A stretch of 64,000 nucleotides of DNA, from sequence record NC_106721.1; one strand, written 5' to 3'. Of the stretch, positions 1 through 12,391 are shown one piece after another. The DNA comes from Escherichia phage EC148. Each line of letters opens with the position of its first letter. The first letter of the stretch is position 1. The translations under genes and the position numbers were made by a program. Under the pieces are notes generated by a model. It made no database searches, had not been told where the DNA came from, and saw only the letters and a list, made by a program, of their open reading frames with translations.

Positions 1-19
1 ACAATTTCAACTTTAATTA

Positions 20-754
20 TTACGCAACTTTTAATTTCTCGATATATTGTTGCGGGCTGCAACTATATTCTGCGCGTTCTTCCTCGGTCATACCTTCCCA
101 ACATAATTTCAAACGATCAGCTAGGAATTGATAATCATTATCATCATCGAGGGATTCATCAATAAAGGTTTCACCTATCAATGCCACGCCGATTGATAGA
201 ATATCGTTAACGGCTTGCGCGTCCAGCGTTTTAAATCCGTATGATGCCGCCGCTGATAGTACACCCTTATGATCGTCAATCATTGTAAAATCAGCGTTCG
301 GATATAACTGTTTAAATAATTCAAAATAATAAGATTTATATACTGCGTCTTTGCTGTGGTATATTTCGCTAACTTTATCAGCTTCAAAATATTTGTGTAG
401 TGTATCACGGGAAAACACGCGGATATTACTATTACCACGACCGCGCAGACCTTGTTTACGCAAATAATAATAGTCCGACTTGCTCATTAGTCGAGCGGTA
501 CAAATAATGTTTAAAGTATTTGCGTCATTCATGCACTGGCGCATGTATTCAACTAATGGTAATAAAGTATCCTGCATTATTAAATGATGTTTGCAGGCTT
601 CATTTTTATACTTATTTAAATCTAAATTGCCCTCACTATCAAAGCAAGGCGCTACACGATGGAAAGAATTAACGATAGTGCCGTCTAAATCCCAAATCAT
701 GACGCGGGAAATATGCGGGAAGCTGCGGGAAAGATTCATGATAGCTTTATTCAT
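20..754 (-). CDS. dmp: 5'-deoxyribonucleotidase, HAD-family phosphatase (T5 dmp-like)
   Basis: 244 aa ORF with HAD motif I (WDLDGTIV) near the N-terminus; first gene of pre-early block. Confidence 0.65.
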   Translation of the reverse strand: MNKAIMNLSRSFPHISRVMIWDLDGTIVNSFHRVAPCFDSEGNLDLNKYKNEACKHHLIMQDTLLPLVEYMRQCMNDANTLNIICTARLMSKSDYYYLRKQGLRGRGNSNIRVFSRDTLHKYFEADKVSEIYHSKDAVYKSYYFELFKQLYPNADFTMIDDHKGVLSAAASYGFKTLDAQAVNDILSIGVALIGETFIDESLDDDNDYQFLADRLKLCWEGMTEEERAEYSCSPQQYIEKLKVA

Positions 755-833
755 TTGTTACGTTCTCCATTTAAGGGATTAGATTAATTCAGCATTACCC
801 GCTATTTATAAGCGGGTAATAATAAATTAACTA

Positions 834-1226
834 TTAAAGACCATAAGCCAACGCATCAGCGATAAAACTAACATCCTCACCGGATACGCTGGAACGAATA
901 CCCGCACAAGTATATACTTTCGCACTCGTTAGCTGATCATCAAGGCAAGCGGGGCAAGGCGCGACAACTGCAAAGGCTAGACCAGATTTTACCGCGTCAA
1001 TAATGATTGTTTCTTGTTTCATCGTGTCAACATAAACGCCTTTTGCTTTAATATGGCTTGTTAGTTTGCCTTGCATATATGCAAATGTTGTAACCTGCAT
1101 CGCATCATTGAAATCTAACAATTCATCAATAACGTGCCCCGCCTCGACGTGATAACGTTCACCATTAGAATAAACCAGAACAATGGAAGACTGAGCGCGA
1201 TCGAATGGAATATTTTGCTTTTTCAT
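834..1226 (-). CDS. hypothetical protein with HxE ... PCxxC zinc-binding signature
   Basis: 130 aa ORF; HVEAGH and APCPAC motifs resemble a deaminase-type zinc site but spacing (about 70 aa) is atypical. Confidence 0.4.
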   Translation of the reverse strand: MKKQNIPFDRAQSSIVLVYSNGERYHVEAGHVIDELLDFNDAMQVTTFAYMQGKLTSHIKAKGVYVDTMKQETIIIDAVKSGLAFAVVAPCPACLDDQLTSAKVYTCAGIRSSVSGEDVSFIADALAYGL

Positions 1227-1264
1227 ATTTATAAAACCCCAATTAGTTTAATAATGGATTTAAA

Positions 1265-1522
1265 TTATTTGATAATAATCTGCATCTGGTACGGCGTTAA
1301 TTCACCGTTTACGGGTAGATTATTATCACTTAGCCACTCATAAAAAGCGCTATCGTCATCAAAAGGAACAACATCATTATCACGGTAATCTACGGAAATA
1401 ACGCCATCAGTATTAGTTTTAGCGGCTAGGATAGGCCCGAAGCTGTAAACTTTATCAGATTCCATTTCATCCGGTGAAATGAATACTTTTTCGTCCAGTG
1501 TTTTGGGTAATGTAACTTTCAT
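1265..1522 (-). CDS. hypothetical protein
   Basis: 85 aa ORF co-directional with dmp/A1. Confidence 0.4.
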   Translation of the reverse strand: MKVTLPKTLDEKVFISPDEMESDKVYSFGPILAAKTNTDGVISVDYRDNDVVPFDDDSAFYEWLSDNNLPVNGELTPYQMQIIIK

Positions 1523-1577
1523 TTTTGTGACTCCTGAAATAGCGGCTATATTTCAAGCCGCTAGGGAAATAATTTAA

Positions 1578-3242
1578 TTACGCAAAGAATTTACCGTTTT
1601 TAAAGTCAATCAAAGTGCGCTGACCGTTTGCATAGGTAATTAAATGCGTCTGCGTCCAGCTTGACGCGCCAACGTTGTAACCCATATCCAGACTACCAGC
1701 TACGCCAGCGGTGTATACGCCGCCGTAAATGCTGGCGGTATGCGTATGCCCCGTGTTTAACTTGCCCAATTTCTTAAATTGTTTCGGGTTGCCACGGCTG
1801 CCGTTAATGCCGTTGTGACCGTGTACGCCGCATTCAATACCTGCAATCTTGAAAGATTGGTCAGTGGTTAGGAAAATGGCGTTAAACTCACAACCTGCAA
1901 CCTTGCGCAACGCATAATCTAGCACGTTGAAAGTATCGTCATGCTCACCGATTGCCGCGTAAATTGCAGCATTTAGGCGGTGATATAGTTCGGCGTTGGC
2001 GGGATCGTCTTTAATGTTAGCATTACGATCATCAAGCCAGCGGGATAGCGCCAAATCGTGATTCGATTCTACGATGATTGTTTGACTAAAATCACGTTCC
2101 ATTGATTCCAGCACGCGCCCCGTATCGATAAGATCATCCAGAACTTTATCACGTCCGGCGGCATACTGTTTCGCTAGGAATACACCGGATGCACGGTTAT
2201 GATGATTGCGCGATGTAAAATCATGCACGTCATGAATAAGCTGATATTTTGGTTTAAGAATATCAAGCAAACTATTCTCGCCAGCCCATGACGCAACGGC
2301 ACAATCATCATCTAATTTTTCGGCGTGAATATCGCCATACTGCAAGCCTAAAACATGCCCCGATGTTTCATAGCATCCGGCAGGAGTAGCGCAAACGTTC
2401 AGATCATAAAACACCCCGCTTTCGTCCATCGTTTCAAGCTGGCGTACAAAAAATTCCCCGTCGTCGTCGAACTCAACAATAAGCGCACCGAAGTTATGCA
2501 GCGCCTCGGCCTTTTGTCCTGCTTTCTGCTGAATGTAGTTTTTGAGCGTTGCCGTTCCGGTTGAATACATACGGCGCACTACTTCACCTTTTAAAGCTGG
2601 CACACTTTCAGCGGTGATTTTAGCGTGACCAATTGCCAGACCTTCAATATTTAAAGCCGTTGCAGTTTCTGCGAATCCAGAAAGCGGATAATCTGCGGTT
2701 GGCAAAACATTAATTTCAGCCATGAAAGCGAAACGGCGGTTATTTAAAAACACGTTTTTGCTGCAAATATATTTATCAAACGCGGAATCATATTTGATTC
2801 CATCCGCACCTTCCCCATTTTGAAAACCGTTTTTATTATAAATATACTTAGAAACGAGCAAATCAGCGCCGATAAATTTGGCATATTGTTCAAGTGAGGC
2901 CAAAAAGTTTTTATGCGGGAAAGTATTATTCTGAATCGATGTAATAATAAAGCGTTTGCCTTGTTTTACTTCCCACTGTTCAACCGTGCTAGAAACAACC
3001 CCCGCCGCTTCTGGGCGCTCGTCGTTTTTAATGGCTTTTGCTACTTTCGCCGCTTTCGGTTTCGCTGGTTTATTTGCTTCCAACCAATCACAAATGGCGG
3101 TGGAGTGTTTCGTTGTATCGTAGACCGCTTTTGATATATCGTCGCAGACTTCCAGTTTAGTAGCGCGCAGACGTTTACCATAGAAATTAAAGTCAGCGGC
3201 CATTTTCAGGATAACGGTTTGTTTTTCTGCGGAAATAATCAT
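1578..3242 (-). CDS. A1: A1-like pre-early protein, calcineurin-type metallophosphoesterase
   Basis: 554 aa ORF; phosphoesterase motifs GDIH, HDVHDF, ESNHD, GHNG/GHTH; position after dmp matches T5 pre-early order. Confidence 0.65.
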   Translation of the reverse strand: MIISAEKQTVILKMAADFNFYGKRLRATKLEVCDDISKAVYDTTKHSTAICDWLEANKPAKPKAAKVAKAIKNDERPEAAGVVSSTVEQWEVKQGKRFIITSIQNNTFPHKNFLASLEQYAKFIGADLLVSKYIYNKNGFQNGEGADGIKYDSAFDKYICSKNVFLNNRRFAFMAEINVLPTADYPLSGFAETATALNIEGLAIGHAKITAESVPALKGEVVRRMYSTGTATLKNYIQQKAGQKAEALHNFGALIVEFDDDGEFFVRQLETMDESGVFYDLNVCATPAGCYETSGHVLGLQYGDIHAEKLDDDCAVASWAGENSLLDILKPKYQLIHDVHDFTSRNHHNRASGVFLAKQYAAGRDKVLDDLIDTGRVLESMERDFSQTIIVESNHDLALSRWLDDRNANIKDDPANAELYHRLNAAIYAAIGEHDDTFNVLDYALRKVAGCEFNAIFLTTDQSFKIAGIECGVHGHNGINGSRGNPKQFKKLGKLNTGHTHTASIYGGVYTAGVAGSLDMGYNVGASSWTQTHLITYANGQRTLIDFKNGKFFA

Positions 3243-3581
3243 GATAATAAAACTCCATTAAAGGGATTAGATTAATAACGGCAATATTGCCAAATATAAC
3301 GCCTCGAATAATAGGCGTTATAATTTGCAACATTAATTTAAAGGCATAAGGCTAGAACTAACACCACAAGCAACGGCGGCAATAAAACAAATAATACGAA
3401 TCTAAATCATTTTGAAAATAAGCGAACAATAACGAGGCCGCCATAATAAACAAGCCTAGAATTAATGATTCAGTAGGATAAAAGATCATTTTAAAAACTC
3501 CTGATTTAAGGGAAGAAAATAACTATCGCTAAACAGTTATATTATTGCCCCCTCACTAAAAAAGGGGGCAAGGTATAACTA

Positions 3582-3989
3582 TTATTCGCCTGCGGCTTGT
3601 TTTACTTCATCGGCAACGCCTAACAATTGCGCTACTGCGTCCAGCGTTTCAAGTTTTGCACTTTCAAGGCTTGCCAGATCATCGGCATCTTTGATAATGC
3701 CGGAATCGATAGCGTGTTTTGCAATAACGCGTACATAATGAGCTTTGCGGATTGAACTACCGCCGCCAACTTTGCGAGGCTTATCGCTTTTTTGATATGC
3801 TTTTGCGCTGGTCAATTTTGACCGAACGGATACGGGAGAAGCCGCGCCCACTGCTTTTGCAATCTCTTTTAAACCGTCGCTATTTGCGAAATCTAAACCG
3901 TTTTCATTAATTAACTGTTGATACATGGAAACAGCTTTCTGAGTGTTTTCTTCATTCCATGCGAATTTTGCGATTTTAGCGTTAGTCAT
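3582..3989 (-). CDS. A2: A2-like pre-early protein
   Basis: 135 aa ORF downstream of A1 with the same conserved upstream leader motif as dmp and A1; size and position fit T5 A2. Confidence 0.45.
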   Translation of the reverse strand: MTNAKIAKFAWNEENTQKAVSMYQQLINENGLDFANSDGLKEIAKAVGAASPVSVRSKLTSAKAYQKSDKPRKVGGGSSIRKAHYVRVIAKHAIDSGIIKDADDLASLESAKLETLDAVAQLLGVADEVKQAAGE

Positions 3990-4085
3990 GATGTAACTCC
4001 TATTAGTTTAATTTAAGGGATTAGATTAACTTAATGTTAATCGTTATATCCCCCTGAAATAAGGGGATATAAAGTTAACACTAAT

Positions 4086-4337
4086 TTACAATACAGCTTC
4101 CCATTTTTCGTTGCGTTGAACAACCTTTACAACATCGCCGGATTTAACGCGAACGCTAAAAACGGGCTTGCCGTTGTTACTACGTTCATTTTCAGCGTAT
4201 ACCGCGTCGATTGTATCGAACGGCATAAGCGCCGCACCTTTAATACGTTCGGCCTTTCCGGTTAATTCATCCGTTTTAGTAACGAAAGGAATGAAGACGG
4301 ATTGACCAACTTTCGGCGCGGTAATAACGTTTTGCAT
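4086..4337 (-). CDS. hypothetical protein
   Basis: 83 aa ORF, co-directional pre-early block. Confidence 0.4.
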   Translation of the reverse strand: MQNVITAPKVGQSVFIPFVTKTDELTGKAERIKGAALMPFDTIDAVYAENERSNNGKPVFSVRVKSGDVVKVVQRNEKWEAVL

Positions 4338-5218
4338 AATATAAACTCCTAGTTATTTGGGGATTGTTCCGCATTACCTGCTAGAAAGTAACAGCAGGTA
4401 ATAAGTAACAATCCGCTCGCCAATATAATCAATTTTAAAGAACTCCACGTAGGCCGCTATATCCCGTTAGGGGGCGGGATGCATTATGGTAAGCACCGAC
4501 CGTCAAATTTTATCAAGTTATCGCTCTTATCGAACTGGGTACATCTTAAAACCTATCGGCTAGGTTGTCAAACAATTTTTTGCAATTTTTTATGATTTTC
4601 TTTTAGGTCAATCATAATATTTCGCCAGATCATTTCCAGACCTTGCTGGCGACCTTTCTTGTACTGCGTGAATCTATATCTTACTGATCTTTGAGCTACT
4701 GTCAACAAATTTTTTGTTTTGCTATCTAGTGCCTTAATAGGCTTGCCAGTGATCAAAAGCGTTTGTTTCATATCGTCGATTCCTTATAATGAATAAGTTT
4801 ACCGCCGATAGGCTTTAAGATGTACCCAATTTTTAAAGAGCGTGGCGGTAAACTTCCCGCCGTGTAGTTCGTCATTGCCGCCCTACGAGATAAATAATAG
4901 GGGATTCCCGAAAATGGCGCAACCTTATTTTTGTAAAGAAATGTAAAGGTAAAACTCACCGGACACCGTGCGGCGACGGCCTAAAATTAAAAGAAACGGG
5001 CGCGCGAATACCACAAAATAAAGCAAATAGGCAAGTAATTTTTTCATTTATATTTGCTTTGCCCTACTTGACAAAATCTAAAAAGCTCGTGGTAATGATA
5101 AACGGCTTATCCCCTTATGATGGGATGGCTAAAAACTTTATTGCGTTCTGGAGCGTTTTAGGCGCATTCTAGCCTTGTTGATAACTTATCCCCAAAAGCA
5201 AAAATGAAATTTTCCTAG

Positions 5219-5251
5219 TTATCCACTTGACTTTTATTTTCCAGTGGATAA
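5219..5251. promoter_or_regulatory. inverted pair of DnaA-box-like 9-mers (TTATCCACT / AGTGGATAA)
   Basis: 8/9 matches to TTATCCACA on both strands, 15 bp apart, in an ORF-free AT-rich region. Confidence 0.45.
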
Positions 5252-5505
5252 CTACTTATTTTATGAAATAAATTAATTGACTTTTATTTGTTAGTATGCA
5301 TCGGAAAGATAGCAGACTAATAATTGCTAGAATGATAATCATGCTGGTGGATTGTAACGACCTGAATTATTAGCAGACTATTAATCACGGAAAAATCTCA
5401 TTAGCCAACTAACTATTTCATGATATATAATATACATATAAATTAATGAGAAATAATAACTATAAGAAATCATCTAGCTAAGTGAGAACCACTATCATTT
5501 AAGTT

Positions 5506-5514
5506 ATACACAAA
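5506..5514 (+). promoter_or_regulatory. DnaA box (TTATCCACA)
   Basis: perfect 9-mer consensus read directly. Confidence 0.5.
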
Positions 5515-5576
5515 GTTATCCACAGCACTTTTTGACTTGACACGATAGGCGGCGATATAAGGACTTTTACACAGAC

Positions 5577-5585
5577 TTATCCACA
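5577..5585 (+). promoter_or_regulatory. DnaA box (TTATCCACA)
   Basis: perfect 9-mer consensus read directly. Confidence 0.5.
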
Positions 5586-5877
5586 GGTTATCCTACTGTA
5601 TATTTATACAGGGTAAAAAGGTAGTGTTAACAACTGCAATCAATTTTAAGCGGCTTAAATCGCATTCTAACGAGCTAAACGCTGTAAGGTAATATTAAAG
5701 TAAAGCCTCAATGCGTCGGCCTGGTGGCTTCGCCGTGGTTTGCTCTTTATTGCACCGCTGCGCGGTTATCATAAAAATAGGCGCTAGGCAAGGAAAATAA
5801 AAAGGTAAAATAATATTTGCCTATGCTAGAAATTTACCTTTATCATTCACTCACCGATTAACGAGGAGGCCGAACAA

Positions 5878-6888
5878 ATGAGGCTGTATAAACCTGATAA
5901 TGCCACCGTATTAAAGGGTGCATTGCGCAACCTGCTAGACGGTAGCAAGTCAACCAGCATTAAACATTTTATTAACAAGATTGAAACTATTCATCAAAAC
6001 TTTTTTGATGATTATGACGCTTATGATATGGATAGTTTTCTACCCTTATATAGACAAGGGGCAACGCTAGTTTTATATAATCGGGATTGCCATATCTTTA
6101 CAGGCAGGGGAGCGGGGCCGGATACCGATTTTATTGTTGCGCAGGGTAATAATATTGTTGCGTATCATAGCAATTCAGGCCGTCAATCATTTAATATAAA
6201 TAGTTTTGAGCTTATTGGACTTGATCTGATAAATGGACTTTCTAGCATTGAGGGATTTTTAGATGTTATCTGGAAGTATTTACCCGCTGGATGGCATAAG
6301 CCGGATAACGACGGATCTCAATATACCGGTATAATGGCTTTTGATGGCGACGGTAATTTTTTGTTACCACGGGAGCTATACCCATATATTTATGATGGGG
6401 ATATAGAAAGCGCTGGTTTTTCTTTCTGGAAAGATGAAGATCAGATTATTGACAGCGTAGAAAACCATGCTGTAAATTCTAACACTCAAAGCGTTAACAC
6501 TCAAACTACTGAAAACAAAGGAAAAAACACCATGACCAAGATTGCTAACATCGTTGCCGCCAATAAATCCGCTGTTGTAAATGCTGCAAAACTGGAGGCG
6601 GGTAAAATTGCATTAACTCAAATTACGAAAGTAGCGGCTAAAAAAGCACCATTCATGATCAAAGGTTATATCGATACACCTATTGGTCGTGTAGTGATCG
6701 CTAACCTGCTGAGTGTAGCGGTTGACCAGTACGCACCGACTAACCAAAAGGCGAAAGCGGTAGCGGGGGCGGCTATGGAAGCGGCAATGCTGGAAATGGT
6801 GCAAAGTTTTAACATCGCTGAAATGATTGATGAAATGGTGAAAGGTATTGATATTTCTACTTTTACCACTAACACCGAAAGCGAGTAA
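5878..6888 (+). CDS. hypothetical protein
   Basis: 336 aa ORF preceded by GAGGAGG RBS; Ala/Lys-rich C-terminal half; hairpin terminator follows. Confidence 0.5.
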   Translation: MRLYKPDNATVLKGALRNLLDGSKSTSIKHFINKIETIHQNFFDDYDAYDMDSFLPLYRQGATLVLYNRDCHIFTGRGAGPDTDFIVAQGNNIVAYHSNSGRQSFNINSFELIGLDLINGLSSIEGFLDVIWKYLPAGWHKPDNDGSQYTGIMAFDGDGNFLLPRELYPYIYDGDIESAGFSFWKDEDQIIDSVENHAVNSNTQSVNTQTTENKGKNTMTKIANIVAANKSAVVNAAKLEAGKIALTQITKVAAKKAPFMIKGYIDTPIGRVVIANLLSVAVDQYAPTNQKAKAVAGAAMEAAMLEMVQSFNIAEMIDEMVKGIDISTFTTNTESE

Positions 6889-6896
6889 TAATATTT

Positions 6897-6925
6897 AGCG
6901 GGGATTATTTCCCCGCTTTACTACT
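6897..6925 (+). terminator. hairpin terminator candidate
   Basis: stem AGCGGGGA/TCCCCGCT followed by T-rich tract directly after the 336 aa ORF. Confidence 0.45.
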
Positions 6926-6953
6926 CCCTTGTTAATTAATAGGAGGCTAATAA

Positions 6954-7448
6954 ATGGCTGAGGAAAAATACGGCTTCTCGCTAGGGGAAGTGAGCACGGC
7001 TAAACATGATATGATCATTTTAGTCGATTGTCATACTGGCTATTGCGGGGAAGGGAATACCGAGGAATACTTTGTTCCTGCTGGTACGGATCTGGACGCT
7101 TTCGCTCATGAAATGGCTATTGATAATGCTTCTCGTTTTGGTAGCGATGGCTATGAAGACGAAGAAACTGGCGAATGGTATGAAAATGAAAACGTATATG
7201 CTGGCCTTTATCATTATCAATTAAGTAAATCCGGCACATATGTAAACGGCGGCGATCCTATTAATTCCGTCATGAAATTAATTATTAAATATGGTGGCGT
7301 CGAAATAATTGATAATAAAGCGGTAATATACGCAAATCGATTAAAACAGCTTGTTTATATTCCTGATAATACCCGATGGGAGGAATACGCTGTTTTACAT
7401 GATGAATTAAAACGATGTTTCAATGTTGAATCCTTACAGGTAGTTTAA
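6954..7448 (+). CDS. hypothetical acidic protein
   Basis: 164 aa ORF with AGGAGG RBS. Confidence 0.5.
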   Translation: MAEEKYGFSLGEVSTAKHDMIILVDCHTGYCGEGNTEEYFVPAGTDLDAFAHEMAIDNASRFGSDGYEDEETGEWYENENVYAGLYHYQLSKSGTYVNGGDPINSVMKLIIKYGGVEIIDNKAVIYANRLKQLVYIPDNTRWEEYAVLHDELKRCFNVESLQVV

Positions 7449-7552
7449 TGTAAAGTTTTGTAAAGGTCGCCTTTTATGGTGGCCTTTTTTGTTATAATGC
7501 TTTTACACCAAAACGGTGGATTAAAAATTTCCCAAAAATTTGGAGGCTTAAA

Positions 7553-7783
7553 ATGGTTGCTTACTCTTCTGCTACTCATCTGTTCACCGCTCAAGGCTGG
7601 GTATCTAACCGCGCCATTATTCATGAAATGGTGCAGGAGTTCGGCATTGCTAAAACTTATAACACCATCCAAGAACTATACAACGCCGATAAAATCGATC
7701 AGCAAACGGCGGGCTTTTTGCTGGACACGCTGAAAGCGGAACACTGTACTAAAAAACAAGCTGCAAAAATTGTTTTAATGTAA
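7553..7783 (+). CDS. hypothetical protein
   Basis: 76 aa ORF with GGAGG RBS. Confidence 0.4.
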   Translation: MVAYSSATHLFTAQGWVSNRAIIHEMVQEFGIAKTYNTIQELYNADKIDQQTAGFLLDTLKAEHCTKKQAAKIVLM

Positions 7784-7830
7784 TTAGTAACGGGGGATAT
7801 TATATCCCCCACTGACTAGGAGAATAAAAA

Positions 7831-7980
7831 ATGGTTATTTTTCGAGCTATTCTGGCGGGTATCTTGGGCGCTATTTTATCGTTGTTTGCAATAGCTTTTG
7901 GCGTTCACGCCGTTATTATTGGCGCTGGCATTGCTGCGTTTTCTTATCTGCTGGGCTGCATGACTAGTAAAGGAGAATAA
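7831..7980 (+). CDS. small hydrophobic membrane peptide (49 aa)
   Basis: own translation: MVIFRAILAGILGAILSLFAIAFGVHAVIIGAGIAAFSYLLGCMTSKGE; RBS AGGAGAA upstream; below the 60 aa cutoff of the ORF track. Confidence 0.4.
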   Translation: MVIFRAILAGILGAILSLFAIAFGVHAVIIGAGIAAFSYLLGCMTSKGE

Positions 7981-7982
7981 AA

Positions 7983-8195
7983 ATGATCCGCAACGTTTCC
8001 CTTGCACGTTCGAAAGGCTTTAAGCTGGTGGATGTTAACACGTTCGAGCGGGAAGATTGTAAAATCGAATATGTAGCACGTAACAAAAATGCCTTTCGTG
8101 TTACCGAGAAAAAATTTGATAAGCGCGGCAACGTGATAGCTGAAACAGTTAAACACTTTGCCACCTTTTACGCTGCGTTTCGTGGGGTACTATGA
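7983..8195 (+). CDS. hypothetical protein
   Basis: 70 aa ORF, start 3 nt after previous stop. Confidence 0.4.
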   Translation: MIRNVSLARSKGFKLVDVNTFEREDCKIEYVARNKNAFRVTEKKFDKRGNVIAETVKHFATFYAAFRGVL

Positions 8196-8335
8196 AAAGC
8201 GTTATTGTTATTATCCTTGCAATGGCTGGCGGTTTTATCGCCACCTTATTTAAAAATGACCCCATTTCATTGGGGATCTTTATGCTTTTATCTGGCTATC
8301 TAATCGGGAGGCTAACAAATGATTCAGCAAATTAA
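8192..8335 (+). CDS. small hydrophobic membrane peptide (47 aa)
   Basis: own translation MKSVIVIILAMAGGFIATLFKND...; ATGA start/stop overlap with upstream gene. Confidence 0.4.
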   Translation: MKSVIVIILAMAGGFIATLFKNDPISLGIFMLLSGYLIGRLTNDSAN

Positions 8336-8441
8336 AACGGCTTTTCGTTTTTGGGGCGTCCTGCCTTCAATTGGTTTTATTCTGATAATTATTAGTCAGC
8401 TAATGATCATCGGCGGAACTATTTGGGAGCTATGCAAATGA
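8319..8441 (+). CDS. small hydrophobic membrane peptide (40 aa)
   Basis: own translation MIQQIKTAFRFWGVLPSIGFILIIISQLMIIGGTIWELCK; overlaps the previous peptide gene in another frame. Confidence 0.35.
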   Translation: MIQQIKTAFRFWGVLPSIGFILIIISQLMIIGGTIWELCK

Positions 8442-8782
8442 TAATTTATGAAGGCAATCGTTTTGTTGCTAATTGCCGCCCAGCATTATTAGCAAACTAT
8501 TTAAATCAGCTTTCCCCAGCTTATAAGGGCGTTATTAATATTTATGAGGGCAAGGCACATTATAAAATTAATGCGGTCGTTGCCCGTGAACTAGCGTTTC
8601 AATTTTTGACCTTTGCATCTTGTGACGTTCAGGTTATGGGTGAAGCATTAATTGCAGAAAATGAAGATGATTTTATTAATATTTTCCGCAAGGTATGTAC
8701 CGAGCGCCTGATAATGAAAGGCGCATATATTCAATCCACTGCGGATAGTATTGAAACAGCGTTTCGAAAGGTGGCGCAATGA
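8438..8782 (+). CDS. hypothetical protein
   Basis: ORF track 8423..8782; start moved to ATG at 8438 (ATGA overlap with upstream stop). Confidence 0.45.
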   Translation: MIIYEGNRFVANCRPALLANYLNQLSPAYKGVINIYEGKAHYKINAVVARELAFQFLTFASCDVQVMGEALIAENEDDFINIFRKVCTERLIMKGAYIQSTADSIETAFRKVAQ

Positions 8783-8883
8783 GATTATATATTTTCGTTG
8801 GTAATAGTAAGGCCGCTAATGATTCCGCTGGTGGCGATAACATTCGCCACTATTGGCAAAAATATATTTACTAGGGAGTTATT

Positions 8884-9078
8884 ATGAGTAATAAAATAGT
8901 TGTAACCAAGATCAGTACAATGGTTGATGTTTTTTACGTGCCAGATACGCCGGAGAATCGGCAAGCGGTCGAGCGTGGCGAATATGATAAAGTGATTTAT
9001 GATCACGATGGTTATTATCAGTATTTGGTGGATTCCTACGGGGAGGAGGAAAAAATCACGCATCGACTACCAGACTAA
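8884..9078 (+). CDS. hypothetical protein
   Basis: 64 aa ORF with GGGAG RBS. Confidence 0.4.
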   Translation: MSNKIVVTKISTMVDVFYVPDTPENRQAVERGEYDKVIYDHDGYYQYLVDSYGEEEKITHRLPD

Positions 9079-9119
9079 TAATCACGGGGCGCAACTATCA
9101 GGGAGTGCCCCCAATTTTC

Positions 9120-9140
9120 AAATGAGAATGATTCTCATTT
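9120..9140. repeat. palindrome AAATGAGAATGATTCTCATTT
   Basis: near-perfect 21 bp inverted repeat; second copy at 9616-9635. Confidence 0.6.
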
Positions 9141-9435
9141 AACCGCGCCCGCGATGGTTAGCCTGCTAATGATTAGGGTGTTACGTGTCGCCTTGTGTGA
9201 TCGTTAGCTCGCTAACTAATTTCTAAGCCTCCTCCAATTTTACCCGTGTTTTAGTATCCCCAACAAAATTAAACGCGTTAGAATGCGTTTGAGAGCGTTT
9301 TAGCTGTATATTAGAATTATTCACTGCATAGGAATACTGTATATTTATACAGTAGGATAAGCTGTTGATAAGTCTGTTGATAACGCCTCAAAATGGCTAG
9401 GATTTTGTCAAGTCAAATCGTGCTGTTGATAAGTC

Positions 9436-9444
9436 TGTGGATAA
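9436..9444 (-). promoter_or_regulatory. DnaA box (TGTGGATAA, reverse orientation)
   Basis: perfect reverse complement of TTATCCACA next to two TGTTGATAA half-matches. Confidence 0.45.
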
Positions 9445-9615
9445 CTTAAATAATAGTGTTTCTCACTTCCATTCTTAAATACGAATCAGTATCATTCGCA
9501 TTTCACTATCTAACTAATAATCATTCCACTTTTTAAATGAGAATCGTTTCACTTCCTGAATAATTCTCATTTCCATTCTTAAATGCGAATTATTATCATT
9601 CACATTCCGCTTTTT

Positions 9616-9635
9616 AAATGAGAATGATTCTCATT
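9616..9635. repeat. palindrome AAATGAGAATGATTCTCATT (copy 2)
   Basis: same inverted repeat as 9120-9140, inside a block of tandem 30-50 bp repeats (9440-9650). Confidence 0.6.
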
Positions 9636-9677
9636 ATCATTCGTATTCAGGCAAGCAGGGCAATTGCCCTGCGCTTT

Positions 9678-10278
9678 TGTGCAAATCCGACATTTGCCCC
9701 CATGGATTACGCGTGGGCGTGTATGTGCGAATCCGACAATTTTTGGTAGTGTGCAAATCCGACCCGAAAAATTTTTATAATGTGCGGATCCGACAATGAA
9801 TTTTCCTAAAAACTCCAGCAATCCGATGCTGCGCATCAATCCTGTGGAATTAACTAGAATATGTGCAAATCCGACATGGGTTTATTTGTGCGAATCCGAC
9901 AAGATTTTTGTGACTTCGATTGGAGAGTGTGTGATTGTAAGAGTTTGGGGAGAAGTTGAGAGATCGAGAAAAATTTGAGGGAACTGCGAGAGGGGCGCAT
10001 GTTTGGTGCGTAGCACCTGATTTGCGGGGATTTTGGGGAAGAGTTGAGAAGATTTGGGTTAATTTGAGATTAGTGCAGATAAAGTAAAATCTTATTAGCT
10101 AAATGGGGCAAAATAGCTTGACAAGTGAAAGTTTCTGTGGCTCTAAAAACTCAGGCAATCATGGGCCTTCGGCCCGAAATAATGCTGCCATTTTCAAGAG
10201 ATTATATGTTCCTAAAAACTTAGGCAATTGTGCAAATCCGACCATAAATTTCTAGAAACACAATGTGCAAATCCGACA
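9678..10278 (+). repeat. dispersed direct repeats TGTGCRRATCCGACA, 8 copies
   Basis: copies read at about 9678, 9724, 9751, 9781, 9862, 9887, 10229 and 10264; irregular spacing, no ORF. Confidence 0.7.
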
Positions 10279-10320
10279 GTAATTTCTGGAAATGTGTTTT
10301 CAAAAAATGTCTCCTAGAAA

Positions 10321-10400
10321 TAACCGCCCTCCCCATAACCGCCCTGTATTAAACCGCCTAGTATATGTTCCTAGAAACTTAGGAGAACCGCCCTAGAAAG
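10321..10400 (+). repeat. short direct repeats AACCGCCCT (x4) interleaved with CTAGAAA motifs
   Basis: read directly; same ORF-free repeat region. Confidence 0.5.
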
Positions 10401-10814
10401 AGTGAGTATTTCGTGAGAACTCTGGAGTTTCTAGGAAAGTGTTGTGCCATCCTAGCAGATGAGCGGCAACAGGTGTATCATCTTGAATGTAAATTATGTG
10501 GTCAAAAGTTTTACTTTTATTTTAAATATAAGATCCCCCAGGGTTCTCATATAGAGCTTTGCCCCCGCCAGAAGGTCTCGTGATGTTTCTAGCAATTTAT
10601 ATTAAATTACTTATTAACTTGTCCTGTCGCTCCGTATCCTCCGCTACAAGTTAGTAATTTTAAATTACTGAACCACCACACCTTCTGTGTGGCAACTCTA
10701 AATGGTTAATTCTATTAACTCATAGAGTTATGATAACATACATTTAGCTATCTGTCAACGAGAGTTTGTATTTGAGTCTCGGTACAGGTATTGTGCACCG
10801 AGACATGCAGGATC

Positions 10815-11699
10815 TTACAGTAACTCTTGGTATGCTTTTTGGTACGCCTCAGTGTCAGTAGGTGTATCTTTTGCTAGTGCAATTAGTTCATCTGTTATCT
10901 GAATGTTCGTATTATAACGTGTGTGGAACTCGTTAGGAATTTCTAGGTATCTATTGATGAATGCTGCAGCAAGCGGTGTGACTAAACCAATCTCTAGAGA
11001 TAGCTTAACTTGTTTTTCGTAGATTAAATATTGAGAATCAGATGGGGTTGGTGGGGTTACATCAATTTTCTCGGGTTCTTTTTCTGGAAGCAATGGATTA
11101 TTATATAATGCTTCATCTGGAAGCACAGATTTACGCTCTTTAAATATATAAGTTTCTAGATCCGATGCTTTAGATCCTGAGTATACCGCAAAGATGCTAG
11201 CTTTACCCTGTGATGCCCTAACTGGTAAATAACTAGTAGGATAGCTTCTTAATGCATCATGGAATGGACTTCCTGAGTACTTGTATGTATCTCCATAGAG
11301 ATCATCAATATTCATTCGTTCATCTTCAAAGATGTGAAATGACTTAAATGGTGGAATGGTGAAGTATTCCATCTGTAACCCATAAACTAAGAAACGATGT
11401 GCATATGCACTGATTTTTAAGACTGTGAATGCTTTTTCACCTTCTTTATGGGCGTTGCCTTTTGAAGTAACTTGGTAACGTTTACAAAACATCTCTACTA
11501 GACGTTTCTCATTAATACTAAGGGTGGAGTACAGTCGTCCACTTAATCCTATAAGTGCATCGAACATAAATGCTAGTTTATCTTTTTCTTCCTGGGTTAG
11601 TTCAGGAAATGGAAGTACTTTAGCATCAGGAACACTATTATTTTCCTTAGGTTTTGTTTTACCAGCGTTTTGTCTTAGTTTATCTTTAAAGTTATACAT
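10815..11699 (-). CDS. hypothetical protein
   Basis: 294 aa ORF, first gene of the minus-strand early block. Confidence 0.5.
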   Translation of the reverse strand: MYNFKDKLRQNAGKTKPKENNSVPDAKVLPFPELTQEEKDKLAFMFDALIGLSGRLYSTLSINEKRLVEMFCKRYQVTSKGNAHKEGEKAFTVLKISAYAHRFLVYGLQMEYFTIPPFKSFHIFEDERMNIDDLYGDTYKYSGSPFHDALRSYPTSYLPVRASQGKASIFAVYSGSKASDLETYIFKERKSVLPDEALYNNPLLPEKEPEKIDVTPPTPSDSQYLIYEKQVKLSLEIGLVTPLAAAFINRYLEIPNEFHTRYNTNIQITDELIALAKDTPTDTEAYQKAYQELL

Positions 11700-11776
11700 T
11701 ATTATCTCCCATTTTTAAGGTCTGGATGACCTTCTTTTTATTTTAGAGCCTCCGTAGAGGCTCATGTATTAGAGGA

Positions 11777-12391
11777 TTAGCTACCTCTCTTATCTTCATT
11801 AATAGCAGCTCCCAACGCCTCCATAATAGCATCCTCTAAACTTCCATGTTTACCAGGATTATTAAAATGAATAGTACAAACAGAACTCCTAGAAACTCCA
11901 GCATCCGCAGGTGCTACGCTTCGCATATCAGATTCAAAAGCTTCTTGAGTATGTTTTAGCTGTACAGATGGGCCGTAATCTTCCACAAACTTATATGACT
12001 GCGTACTACTTACCACACCCCCACAAGGAATATTGTGCATATCCGACATTAATCTTTTATCGGAGTTATTCAGCATTGCGATTGGTCCGGACGGCCATGA
12101 ATCTCGAATAGTTACTGGAGCACTAGGACGGTTCACCTCAGTCTTCACGAGTTTATAACCAGCGTCTATTAGTGCATTAATCAGGTTATCAGCCGGGATG
12201 CGAGCCGTGCCAAAAATCTTACGAGCATCTTCGAGCTTACTCTCAAGATCTTTACAGGCTTTAAGGTCGGTGTGTGCAAATGTTAGCTTCATAGATTTGA
12301 ATTGTACAGTAGCAGTTAAATCTTTAAAGCTGTAATCCCATGTGTTCAGTTCATGGTCTGGTACTACTTGAATAGGCTGTTGTGTAAACAT
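11777..12391 (-). CDS. hypothetical protein
   Basis: 204 aa ORF. Confidence 0.5.
   Translation of the reverse strand: MFTQQPIQVVPDHELNTWDYSFKDLTATVQFKSMKLTFAHTDLKACKDLESKLEDARKIFGTARIPADNLINALIDAGYKLVKTEVNRPSAPVTIRDSWPSGPIAMLNNSDKRLMSDMHNIPCGGVVSSTQSYKFVEDYGPSVQLKHTQEAFESDMRSVAPADAGVSRSSVCTIHFNNPGKHGSLEDAIMEALGAAINEDKRGS

What the first reader, a model, noticed from the sequence alone, without database searches (positions are those of the whole stretch)
760..4030. Conserved motif TTAATCTAATCCCTTWAAT upstream of dmp, A1 and A2
The reverse complement of AAGGGATTAGATTAA lies 15-25 nt upstream of the start codons of all three pre-early minus-strand genes (at 770-790, 3250-3270 and 4008-4028). 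It is distinct from the early cassette, so it looks like a pre-early-specific promoter element or translational signal.
Basis: seen in the sequence. Interest (0 to 1): 0.4.

Follow-up and report, generated by a model that had tools for sequence, protein, structure and literature searches.

The report
Pre-early gene leader motif, T5-like phage
A short C-containing, A/T-rich sequence sits just in front of the ribosome-binding sites of the first genes that a T5-like phage expresses; it is real and conserved across the phage family, but it lies inside an operon and looks like part of a translation-start signal, not a promoter.

Summary
AAGGGATTAGATTAA occurs three times exactly (773-787, 3261-3275, 4015-4029), always as TTAATCTAATCCCTTWAAT on the gene strand, 18-25 nt before the ATG of dmp, A1 and A2 of a T5-like phage.

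The 19-mer is a lineage-specific long form. Across about 60 relatives (Escherichia, Salmonella, Klebsiella, Pectobacterium and Proteus phages) only (A/T)(T/C)CCC(T/A)(T/A)WA is kept. It is followed after 2-17 nt by a GGAG Shine-Dalgarno.

Weaker copies precede 005, 007, 002, 003 and two rightward pre-early genes. Early genes use a different cassette.

The motif is not a promoter. There is no -35/-10 pair at the sites. The genes lie in one leftward operon driven by the P-H22 and P-D/E20 homologues (about 4705-4543).

Each copy follows a 20-23 bp stem-loop that has no U-tail and is supported by compensatory changes.

Best reading (about 0.45): a single-stranded, boxA-like A/U-rich translational enhancer or 30S/S1 landing pad in each intercistronic ribosome-binding region. 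Rivals are an RNA-processing leader, a weak anti-SD, Nus-factor binding, and a DNA operator.

In passing: a true rrn-type boxA (CGCTCTTTAAAAA, 4830-4842) heads the pre-early transcripts in all T5-like relatives.

The parts
769..787 (-). Motif copy 1 (TTAATCTAATCCCTTAAAT), upstream of dmp. The 5' eight bases (UUAAUCUA) are predicted to be the 3' strand of the lower stem of the preceding hairpin.
765..768 (-). GGAG Shine-Dalgarno of dmp (ATG at 754-752).
   Evidence: invariant in 9/9 aligned relatives
780..833 (-). Intercistronic stem-loop between 002 and dmp: 11+11 bp, no U-tail.
   Evidence: z -6.8, 0/200 shuffles; 6 of 9 upper-stem pairs show compensatory changes
3257..3275 (-). Motif copy 2 (TTAATCTAATCCCTTTAAT), upstream of A1.
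3253..3256 (-). GGAG Shine-Dalgarno of A1 (ATG at 3242-3240).
3282..3335 (-). Intercistronic stem-loop between 005 and A1, about 21 bp. Its sequence is invariant from E. coli to Klebsiella phages.
   Evidence: z -4.4; I2
4011..4029 (-). Motif copy 3 (TTAATCTAATCCCTTAAAT), upstream of A2.
3997..4000 (-). GGAG Shine-Dalgarno of A2 (ATG at 3989-3987). It lies 17 nt after the CCC.
4027..4088 (-). Intercistronic stem-loop between 007 and A2, about 22 bp with an internal loop.
   Evidence: z -5.7; 7 of 20 pairs with compensatory changes
3504..3513 (-). Degenerate copy TCCCTTAAAT upstream of 005 (SD at 3498-3501, ATG at 3489).
   Evidence: D1
3532..3583 (-). Intercistronic stem-loop between A2 and 005: 10+10 bp.
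   Evidence: z -5.5
4355..4365 (-). Related element AATCCCCAAAT upstream of 007. Here ACAAUCC is base-paired with GGAUUGU as the lower stem of the hairpin at 4362-4414.
   Evidence: z -5.8; I3
1253..1261 (-). Weak copy AAATCCATT upstream of 002 (AAATCCCTT in T5). This ribosome-binding region is paralogous to that of A2.
   Evidence: D5
6925..6946 (+). The same signature on the + strand, before a rightward pre-early gene (TCCCTTGTTAATTAATAGGAGG; ATG at 6954).
7528..7546 (+). The same signature before the rightward pre-early gene at 7553 (TTTCCCAAAAATTTGGAGG).
4543..4705 (-). The two strong sigma-70 promoters that drive the leftward operon: TTGACA-16-TAAGAT at 4705-4678 (the P-H22 homologue) and TTGACA-17-TAAGAT at 4571-4543 (the P-D/E20 homologue).
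   Evidence: D7

Best explanation
The motif is the upstream half of the ribosome-binding region of individual cistrons inside the leftward pre-early operon.

Host RNA polymerase starts at the P-H22 and P-D/E20 homologues and makes one long mRNA. Each gene in it is preceded by a module: a stable 20-23 bp stem-loop without a U-tail, then a G-free stretch rich in pyrimidines and A/U, then a GGAG Shine-Dalgarno and the ATG. The invariant core of the G-free stretch is (A)AUCCCUUWAAU.

I infer that this stretch stays single-stranded and acts as a translational enhancer or standby site. It would be a landing pad for the 30S subunit, most likely through ribosomal protein S1. That would keep the Shine-Dalgarno clear of the neighbouring hairpin, so unmodified host ribosomes could start efficiently and independently at each cistron in the first minutes of infection. 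It resembles the rrnB boxA sequence (CUCUUUAA against CCCUUUAA), which is a documented strong A/U-rich enhancer when placed before an SD.

Shown: position, strand, conservation, class specificity, absence of a promoter, the hairpins. Inferred: S1/30S binding and the enhancement itself.
For: Position and strand:
- Every copy lies 2-17 nt 5' of GGAG on the gene strand, in both the leftward and the rightward pre-early operons.

Conservation beyond neutral expectation:
- CCC..GGAG is kept in 28/28 (A1), 27/29 (dmp) and 31/33 (A2) distinct upstream sequences.
- It persists in Klebsiella, Pectobacterium and Proteus phages with only 43-74% A1 identity, where the rest of the spacer cannot be aligned.

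Class specificity:
- 5/7 against 3/72 genes, p=5e-5.

Not a promoter:
-.

Accessibility:
- The core is predicted to be mostly unpaired (mean P(unpaired) 0.53-0.71). The 50 nt upstream, which hold the hairpins, give 0.28-0.44.
- The consensus folds leave the core unpaired except for two invariant CC:GG pairs in the dmp alignment; the A2 alignment leaves it fully unpaired.

Precedent:
- The rrnB boxA sequence placed before an SD is a strong A/U-rich enhancer that works cooperatively with the SD, and S1 binds boxA RNA (PMC2176067 and its references 19 and 33).
Against: - There is no experimental evidence of any kind.
- Generic A/U-rich enhancers do not explain why exactly CCC is invariant.
- The Shine-Dalgarno itself is predicted to be largely paired (P(unpaired) 0.20-0.36), in part with the CCC. 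That points to tuning rather than pure enhancement.
- At dmp the 5' 8 nt of the 19-mer, and at 007 the AAUCC itself, belong to the hairpin stems.
- The first rightward gene (5878) and the strongly expressed early genes do without the element.
Confidence: 0.45

Rival explanations
1. RNA processing or decay determinant. The 20-23 bp composite stem-loops would be RNase III-type (T7-early-like) processing sites, or 3' stabilisers. The motif would then be the conserved 5' leader of the resulting monocistronic mRNAs. In that role it could be an RNase E/G entry or protection site, or the target of a phage-directed, class-specific shut-off of pre-early mRNAs, by analogy with T4 RegB cutting GGAG in early ribosome-binding sites.
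For: - Five intercistronic hairpins of 20-23 bp with internal loops, z -4.4 to -6.8, none with a U-tail.
- Compensatory changes support them.
- The motif starts at or just after the 3' strand of the lower stem.
- Pre-early genes uniformly use GGAG, while the early cassette uses GAGAGG.
- A1 is required for shut-off of pre-early expression (T5 record note).
Against: - No cleavage data exist, and no paper linking T5 pre-early mRNA to RNase III was found.
- A processing site need not sit at a fixed short distance from the SD.
- The conserved part is single-stranded and lies outside the stems.
- No RegB-like gene was looked for.
Confidence: 0.2
2. Weak anti-Shine-Dalgarno. The CCC pairs with the GG of GGAG (UCCC/GG(A)GA or AAUCCC/GGAGUU) in a small hairpin. 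This would damp translation or make it temperature-dependent.
For: - The minimum-energy folds pair CCC with the SD at dmp, 005 and A2.
- The consensus fold keeps CC:GG in 9/9 sequences.
- The SD is predicted to be mostly paired.
- The window's 002 has AAAUCC with GGGGUUU, a fully complementary variant.
Against: - Only 2-4 pairs, with a C-A mismatch or a bulge. The true complement CUCC is never used.
- The loop length varies from 5 to 17 nt.
- There is no covariation, because both sides are invariant.
- dmp lacks the AAU:GUU extension.
Confidence: 0.1
3. Degenerate boxA sites. They would re-load NusB/S10 (or couple Nus factors to ribosomes) at each cistron, keeping transcription termination-resistant through the hairpins.
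For: - UCCCUUUAA matches 7 of 9 positions of GCUCUUUAA.
- A bona fide boxA heads the operon and is conserved in all T5-like relatives.
Against: - NusB reads boxA nucleotides 1-8 base-specifically (PMC3177189). The motif differs at 2-3 of these.
- Known antitermination systems need one promoter-proximal site, not one per gene.
- The tight link of the motif to the SD is not explained.
Confidence: 0.07
4. DNA-level operator for a pre-early protein (A2 is a DNA-binding protein; A1 associates with RNA polymerase), used to shut off or balance pre-early genes. Alternatively, an unconventional internal promoter element.
For: - The strongest copies precede A1, A2 and dmp.
- A1 is needed for pre-early shut-off.
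- TTTAAT and TTAAAT are weakly -10-like.
Against: - There is no dyad symmetry.
- The orientation is strictly tied to the gene strand in both operons.
- The sites are far from the mapped promoters.
- There is no -35 at a constant distance. In T5 the upstream spacing at A1 differs by 6 nt.
Confidence: 0.08

Closest known systems
A/U-rich, S1-dependent translational enhancers upstream of the SD; specifically the rrnB boxA sequence used as a strong enhancer (Komarova et al. 2002 as cited in, and Vimberg et al. 2007, PMC2176067)
   Same: It is a G-poor, U/A/C-rich tract directly 5' of a Shine-Dalgarno on the mRNA strand. The core CCCUUUAA differs by one base from the boxA core CUCUUUAA. It is combined with a moderately strong SD (GGAG).
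   Different: The invariant CCC is not a feature of that class. The element is repeated before most cistrons of one temporal class and is coupled to a preceding long hairpin. No binding or expression data exist.
Phage T7 gene 10 leader 'epsilon' enhancer (UUAACUUUA; recalled from Olins & Rangwala 1989, not re-read here)
   Same: It is a phage leader element with UUAA...CUUUAA immediately before the SD.
   Different: The sequence is not the same. The proposed 16S 458-466 complementarity is not above chance for this motif: 11/15 ungapped matches, a level reached by 93.5% of shuffles of the 19-mer.
T7 early-operon intercistronic RNase III sites (recalled from Dunn & Studier)
   Same: A polycistronic first-phase operon made by host polymerase from strong promoters. 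Each gene is preceded by a stem of about 20 bp with an internal loop and no U-tail.
   Different: Cleavage is unproven here. T7 sites carry no AAUCCCUU leader.
boxA / nut antitermination signals (lambda, rrn)
   Same: Partial sequence resemblance. A real boxA-like element is present at 4830-4842.
   Different: The motif fails 2-3 of the 8 base-specifically read positions, is not promoter-proximal, and is tied to ribosome-binding sites.
T5 early promoter/leader cassette (TTGCTw, 17-18 nt, TATAATA, TAAATT..GAGAGG; PMC3326045)
   Same: It is a repeated, class-specific 5' regulatory cassette in the same genome.
   Different: The early cassette contains a promoter and a GAGAGG-type SD. The pre-early module has no promoter, and has a hairpin, a CCC tract and a GGAG.
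T4 RegB target sites (GGAG in early ribosome-binding regions; recalled)
   Same: The earliest gene class is marked by GGAG Shine-Dalgarno sequences in intergenic regions.
   Different: No nuclease is known or was sought in T5. The conserved element lies upstream of the GGAG.

Membership tests
sigma-70 promoter | -35 and -10 hexamers 16-18 bp apart overlapping or just upstream of the element | tested here: not met
   The scan of 1-12000 lists no minus-strand site at 760-800, 3250-3290 or 4005-4045. Manual reading finds at best 8/12 matches, and those lie in the hairpin, not in the motif.
sigma-70 promoter | A primary (5'-triphosphate) transcript start downstream of the element | not testable with these tools
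   No transcript-start data for T5 pre-early intergenic regions were found. Known promoters lie elsewhere.
A/U-rich S1-type translational enhancer | Located in the 5' leader directly upstream of the SD, on the mRNA strand | tested here: met
   The CCC-to-GGAG spacer has a median of 6 nt (dmp, A1), 7 nt (005) and 14-15 nt (002, A2). All copies are on the gene strand.
A/U-rich S1-type translational enhancer | G-poor, single-stranded | tested here: inconclusive
   There is no G in the 19-mer. Mean P(unpaired) of the core is 0.53-0.71, against 0.28-0.44 upstream. But the CCC is partly predicted to pair with the SD, and parts of the 19-mer lie in stems at dmp and 007.
A/U-rich S1-type translational enhancer | Binds S1/30S and raises translation | not testable with these tools
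   Needs toeprinting, EMSA and reporter fusions.
T7 epsilon enhancer | UUAACUUUA with complementarity to 16S rRNA 458-466 | tested here: not met
   The best ungapped match to 16S 451-465 is 11/15, a level reached by 93.5% of shuffles of the 19-mer.
boxA (NusB-NusE binding site) | 8-nt GCUCUUUA, read base-specifically at positions 1-8 (PMC3177189) | tested here: not met
   The motif reads UCCCUUUA or UCCCUUAA, 2-3 mismatches. Exact GCTCTTTAA occurs elsewhere, at 4833-4841.
intrinsic (rho-independent) terminator | GC-rich hairpin followed by a U-run | tested here: not met
   The hairpins are followed by GCUGAAUUAAUC, ACGAUUAACAUU, UAAUAUAACUG and the like. Only the small GGCAAUAUUGCC palindrome at 3292-3279 is flagged.
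RNase III processing site (T7 early type) | About 20 bp of composite double-stranded stem, usually with an internal loop | tested here: met
   Stems of 22, 21, 20, about 22 and 20 bp, with z -4.4 to -6.8 and covariation.
RNase III processing site (T7 early type) | Cleavage by RNase III in vivo or in vitro | not testable with these tools
   No literature was found.
Rfam cis-regulatory RNA families | A match to a curated covariance model | tested here: not met
   Only chance-level hits, all far below gathering scores, in 1-10500.

The most novel reading that the evidence does not exclude
The CCC tract plus GGAG could be a recognition tag specific to one temporal class. All cistrons of the first-step-transfer DNA in Demerecviridae would carry it so that one factor can act on the whole class after transcription. 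That factor could be a host Nus/S10-S1 assembly seeded by the promoter-proximal boxA. It could instead be a phage pre-early protein responsible for the A1-dependent shut-off. It would either couple antiterminated transcription to translation or switch the class off, as RegB does in T4. On this reading, the regular 20-23 bp hairpins would make the operon a T7-like RNase III-processed unit.
Probability: 0.12. Interest if true: 0.6.

Novelty: new member of a known kind. Interest (0 to 1): 0.3.

Why it matters
Pre-early genes are all that a T5-like phage can express while 92% of its DNA is still outside the cell. How they are expressed so fast, and then shut off, is still unclear (PMC7472727).

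A conserved intercistronic module (hairpin, CCC tract, GGAG) gives concrete cis-elements to mutate. It helps place start codons in poorly annotated T5-like genomes. It tells people engineering T5 deletions which junctions to keep so as to avoid polar effects. It may also offer compact, portable ribosome-binding modules.

The boxA and inverted-repeat features seen alongside suggest that Nus-factor antitermination and RNA processing belong to the pre-early programme. That can be tested directly in nusB and rnc hosts.

Tried and rejected
1. Promoter reading. The sigma-70 scan and manual inspection find none at the motifs.

2. Pairing with 16S rRNA.
   - AUCUAAUCC is complementary to 16S 785-793. 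But 3.9% of shuffles do as well, and this part of the motif is not conserved in relatives.
   - The epsilon-like match to 16S 451-466 is at chance level.
   - Both were dropped.

3. Known RNA families. Rfam at E<=5 gave only noise.

4. Exact-pattern scan of IMG/VR with ATCCCTTWAATGGAG. It gave 120+ hits. Many lie on contigs not among the T5-like contigs already fetched, and I judged (from collection size, not computed) that a 15-mer would be found by chance at about this rate in a collection that large. So the scan says nothing about distribution outside T5-like phages.

5. Literal-sequence search of papers. Noise.

6. An alternative pairing of the motif with the 3' arm of the upstream hairpin (manual reading). 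Only 3-7 weak pairs, and not consistent between sites.

7. A mini-ORF starting at the AUG inside AAUGGAG. That AUG is not conserved (ACUGGAG, AUAGGAG, UCAGGAG elsewhere).

8. Prior description. No accessible paper mentions the motif, boxA, or RNase III in connection with T5 pre-early genes. Davison 2015 (PMC4743489) and Wang et al. 2005 are not held, so earlier mention cannot be excluded.

9. The late-gene half of the genome is not in the window. It was checked only in part, through 11 kb of SUT_E1520 late genes (39-50 kb of L070) and 61 kb of T5.
Full report
WHAT THE WINDOW IS

The first 6 kb are 98.8% identical to Escherichia phage SUT_E1520 and 80-93% identical to hundreds of T5-like phages. 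The annotations under the match are dmp, A1 and A2. Gene order and spacing match the left terminal repeat of T5.

On the minus strand lie these ORFs:
- dmp (20..754)
- 002 (834..1226)
- 003 (1265..1522)
- A1 (1578..3242)
- 005 (3358..3489)
- A2 (3582..3989)
- 007 (4086..4337)
- 008/hdi (4568..4771)

THE OBSERVATION

AAGGGATTAGATTAA occurs exactly three times, at 773-787, 3261-3275 and 4015-4029. With up to two mismatches there is one more hit in 64 kb, against 0.34 expected, and 0 of 100 shuffles reach four.

On the gene strand the shared stretch is TTAATCTAATCCCTT[A/T]AAT. It ends 14, 14 and 21 nt before the ATGs. The repeat finder finds the same family independently and adds a fourth, weaker copy before 005 (D1).

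'All three pre-early minus-strand genes' also understates the gene count.

WHERE IT SITS

No sigma-70-like -35/-10 pair is found at any of the three places. The consensus of T5-type promoters (TTGCTw, 17-18 nt, TATAATA, A-rich -43; PMC3326045) is absent.

The T5 record annotates promoters P-H22 and P-D/E20 upstream of 007 and within 008, and none before dmp, A1 or A2. Their homologues are the two TTGACA promoters at window 4705-4678 and 4571-4543 (D7). A recent T5 study treats dmp to 007 as one operon downstream of these promoters. The motif is thus intercistronic, inside a polycistronic mRNA.

ANATOMY

Each intergenic gap has the same build: stop codon, a strong stem-loop, a G-free A/U- and pyrimidine-rich stretch containing the motif, GGAG, 7-10 nt, then ATG.

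The five stem-loops (before dmp, A1, 005, A2 and 007) are composite stems of 20-23 bp with small internal loops. Their z-scores are -4.4 to -6.8, and none of 200 shuffles folds as well. None is followed by a U-run.

The stems before dmp and A2 are supported by compensatory changes among nine phages: 6 of 9 upper-stem pairs for dmp, and 7 of 20 pairs for A2.

At dmp the first eight bases of the 19-mer (UUAAUCUA) form the 3' strand of the lower stem. At 007 the AAUCC itself is paired with an upstream GGAUUGU. The CCCUUWAAU part before dmp, A1 and A2 lies outside the stems.

WHAT IS CONSERVED

Sources were alignments of orthologous upstream regions and about 60 loci fetched through A1.

- The 5' half (TTAATCT) is variable. 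T5 has AAACGTTTTTTAATCCC before A1; others have AAACTAAATCCC or TTAACCTAAATCCC.
- ATCCCTT(T/A)AA and GGAG are nearly invariant.
- CCC followed by GGAG is present in 28/28 distinct A1 leaders, 27/29 dmp leaders and 31/33 A2 leaders. It is less strict for 002 (22/27), 005 (18/23) and 007 (12/24).
- The signature survives where nothing else in the spacer can be aligned:
  - Klebsiella phages: TATCCCATTAACTGGAG, AACCCCGAAACCGGAG
  - Pectobacterium phages My1 and DU_PP_V: ATTCCCAAAAATTAATTTGGAG
  - Proteus phages Stubb and PM135 (43% A1 identity): TTTCCCTAATAAATAGGAG, TTTCCCTTTAATTAGGAG
- More distant metagenomic A1 relatives (37-48% identity) lack it before A1.

CLASS SPECIFICITY

TCCCTT[AT]AAT occurs four times in the window. 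All four are on the minus strand, just before the SD of dmp, A1, 005 and A2.

The pattern CCC, A/T-run, GGAG is found before 5 of 7 leftward pre-early genes against 3 of 72 other genes with a good SD. Fisher p is 5e-5.

Two rightward pre-early genes carry it on the + strand, at 6925-6946 and 7528-7546. So the orientation follows transcription.

Early genes carry a different cassette, TGTATAAT..TTCATAAATTGATGAGAGAGGA.

In T5 and SUT_E1520, loose matches elsewhere are not followed by an SD.

MECHANISM

Position next to the SD, strand dependence, presence inside an operon, and conservation far beyond the neighbouring bases point to an RNA-level role in translation initiation.

The core is predicted to be mostly unpaired (0.53-0.71), against 0.28-0.44 for the hairpin region.

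Its sequence is one base away from the core of boxA (CCCUUUAA against CUCUUUAA). The rrnB boxA placed before an SD is a published strong A/U-rich enhancer that acts cooperatively with the SD, and S1 is reported to bind boxA RNA (PMC2176067 and references therein).

I therefore take the motif to be an S1/30S landing pad that insulates each SD from the adjacent hairpin. My confidence is 0.45. Binding and enhancement are inferred, not shown.

Points against:
- The invariant CCC is not explained by a generic A/U-rich enhancer.
- The SD is predicted to be largely paired (0.20-0.36 unpaired), partly with the CCC.

RIVALS

(a) Processing or decay. The regular 20-23 bp stems look like T7-early RNase III sites, and the motif would be the 5' leader of the processed mRNAs. 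It could also be the handle for the A1-dependent shut-off of this class. Confidence 0.2. No cleavage data or literature were found.

(b) Weak anti-SD. CCC:GG pairs recur in the folds, but there are only 2-4 of them, with a mismatch, variable loops and no covariation. Confidence 0.1.

(c) Degenerate boxA for NusB/S10. The motif fails 2-3 of the 8 base-specifically read positions (PMC3177189) and is not promoter-proximal. Confidence 0.07.

(d) DNA operator or unconventional promoter. There is no symmetry, a strict strand rule, and variable upstream spacing. Confidence 0.08.

Complementarity to 16S rRNA was tested and dropped. Rfam has nothing.

COMPARISON AND NOVELTY

The element works most like the A/U-rich, boxA-type translational enhancers. 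The whole module resembles the intercistronic regions of the T7 early operon. It is not a member of the promoter, terminator, boxA or epsilon classes by the tests made here.

I found no description of it in the accessible literature. The two most relevant sources (Wang et al. 2005; Davison 2015) could not be read.

I rate it a new member of a known kind, of modest interest (0.3). It is real, conserved and class-specific, but probably an ordinary kind of signal.

SEEN IN PASSING

1. An rrn-type boxA (CGCTCTTTAAAAA, 4830-4842, minus strand), directly after a hairpin, lies upstream of 008. Its core GCTCTTTAA is present in operon orientation in all 53 T5-like loci. In Proteus, Klebsiella and Epseptimavirus phages it sits about 15-25 nt after strong TTGACA promoters, in up to four co-oriented promoter-proximal copies per locus. 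No paper pairs boxA with T5.

2. This boxA is part of a 39-nt inverted repeat flanking 008/hdi (4522-4560 and 4804-4842, 85% complementary; I1). There is a compensatory change in Epseptimavirus.

3. The hairpin before A1 is invariant in sequence across genera.

All three suggest that Nus-dependent antitermination and RNA processing are part of the pre-early programme.

Noticed in passing
window 4830-4842 (minus strand), with hairpin at 4844-4861: An rrn/lambda-type boxA, CGCTCTTTAAAAA, lies directly after the hairpin GGCGGGAAGTTTACCGCC, upstream of gene 008/hdi. The core GCTCTTTAA is present in operon orientation in all 53 T5-like loci. In Proteus, Klebsiella and Epseptimavirus phages it lies about 15-25 nt downstream of strong TTGACA promoters, in up to four co-oriented promoter-proximal copies per locus (e.g. 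CGCTCTTTAACAAT). This suggests Nus-factor antitermination of pre-early transcription. No paper in the library pairs boxA with phage T5.
   Followed up: partly
window 4522-4560 and 4804-4842: A 39-nt inverted repeat (85% complementary) flanks gene 008/hdi. One arm contains the boxA. The other overlaps the -10 and start of the P-D/E20-type promoter. Epseptimavirus shows a compensatory change (GGGAACATC/GATGTTCCC against GGGTACATC/GATGTACCC). It is reminiscent of the rrn leader-trailer helix.
   Followed up: partly
window 3282-3335 (minus strand): The stem-loop upstream of A1 (TTGCAAATTATAACGCC..GGCGTTATATTTGGCAATATTGCC) is sequence-invariant from E. coli to Klebsiella phages, while only its loop varies in length (9-25 nt). 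It is more conserved than a plain stem requires, and this is unexplained.
   Followed up: partly
window 780-833, 3282-3335, 3532-3583, 4027-4088, 4362-4414: Five intercistronic stem-loops have very regular length (20-23 bp, GC-rich top and AU-rich bottom, small internal loops, no U-tail). They look like RNase III substrates such as those of the T7 early operon.
   Followed up: partly
window 1235-1252 and 3995-4012: The ribosome-binding regions of 002 and A2 are paralogous (ATTAAACTAATTGGGGTT and ATTAAACTAATAGGAGTT). The long CCC-to-SD spacer of both appears to be the short form plus an inserted TAAAYTAAT (D5).
   Followed up: no
many early-gene starts, e.g. upstream of 16369, 16879, 24860, 26986, 36851, 41360, 62512: Early genes carry a repeated promoter-plus-leader cassette, TTCTGTATAATA..TTCATAAATTGATGAGAGAGGA, ending in a GAGAGG-type SD. 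It is clearly different from the pre-early module.
   Followed up: no
window 3358-3489: The 005 ORF is 43 aa here. T5.005, and the CDS annotated at the same place in the 98.8%-identical SUT_E1520, are 65 aa. SUT_E1520 also annotates a 46-aa ORF running through the A1 hairpin and motif, which is probably spurious.
   Followed up: no
window 776-787, 3264-3275, 4018-4029: In this phage the long form of the motif contains a tandem pentamer (TAATC TAATC CC). At A1, close relatives instead carry AAACGTTTTTTAATCCC. So the identical 5' halves of the three copies look like a recent homogenisation or exchange between intergenic modules.
   Followed up: no
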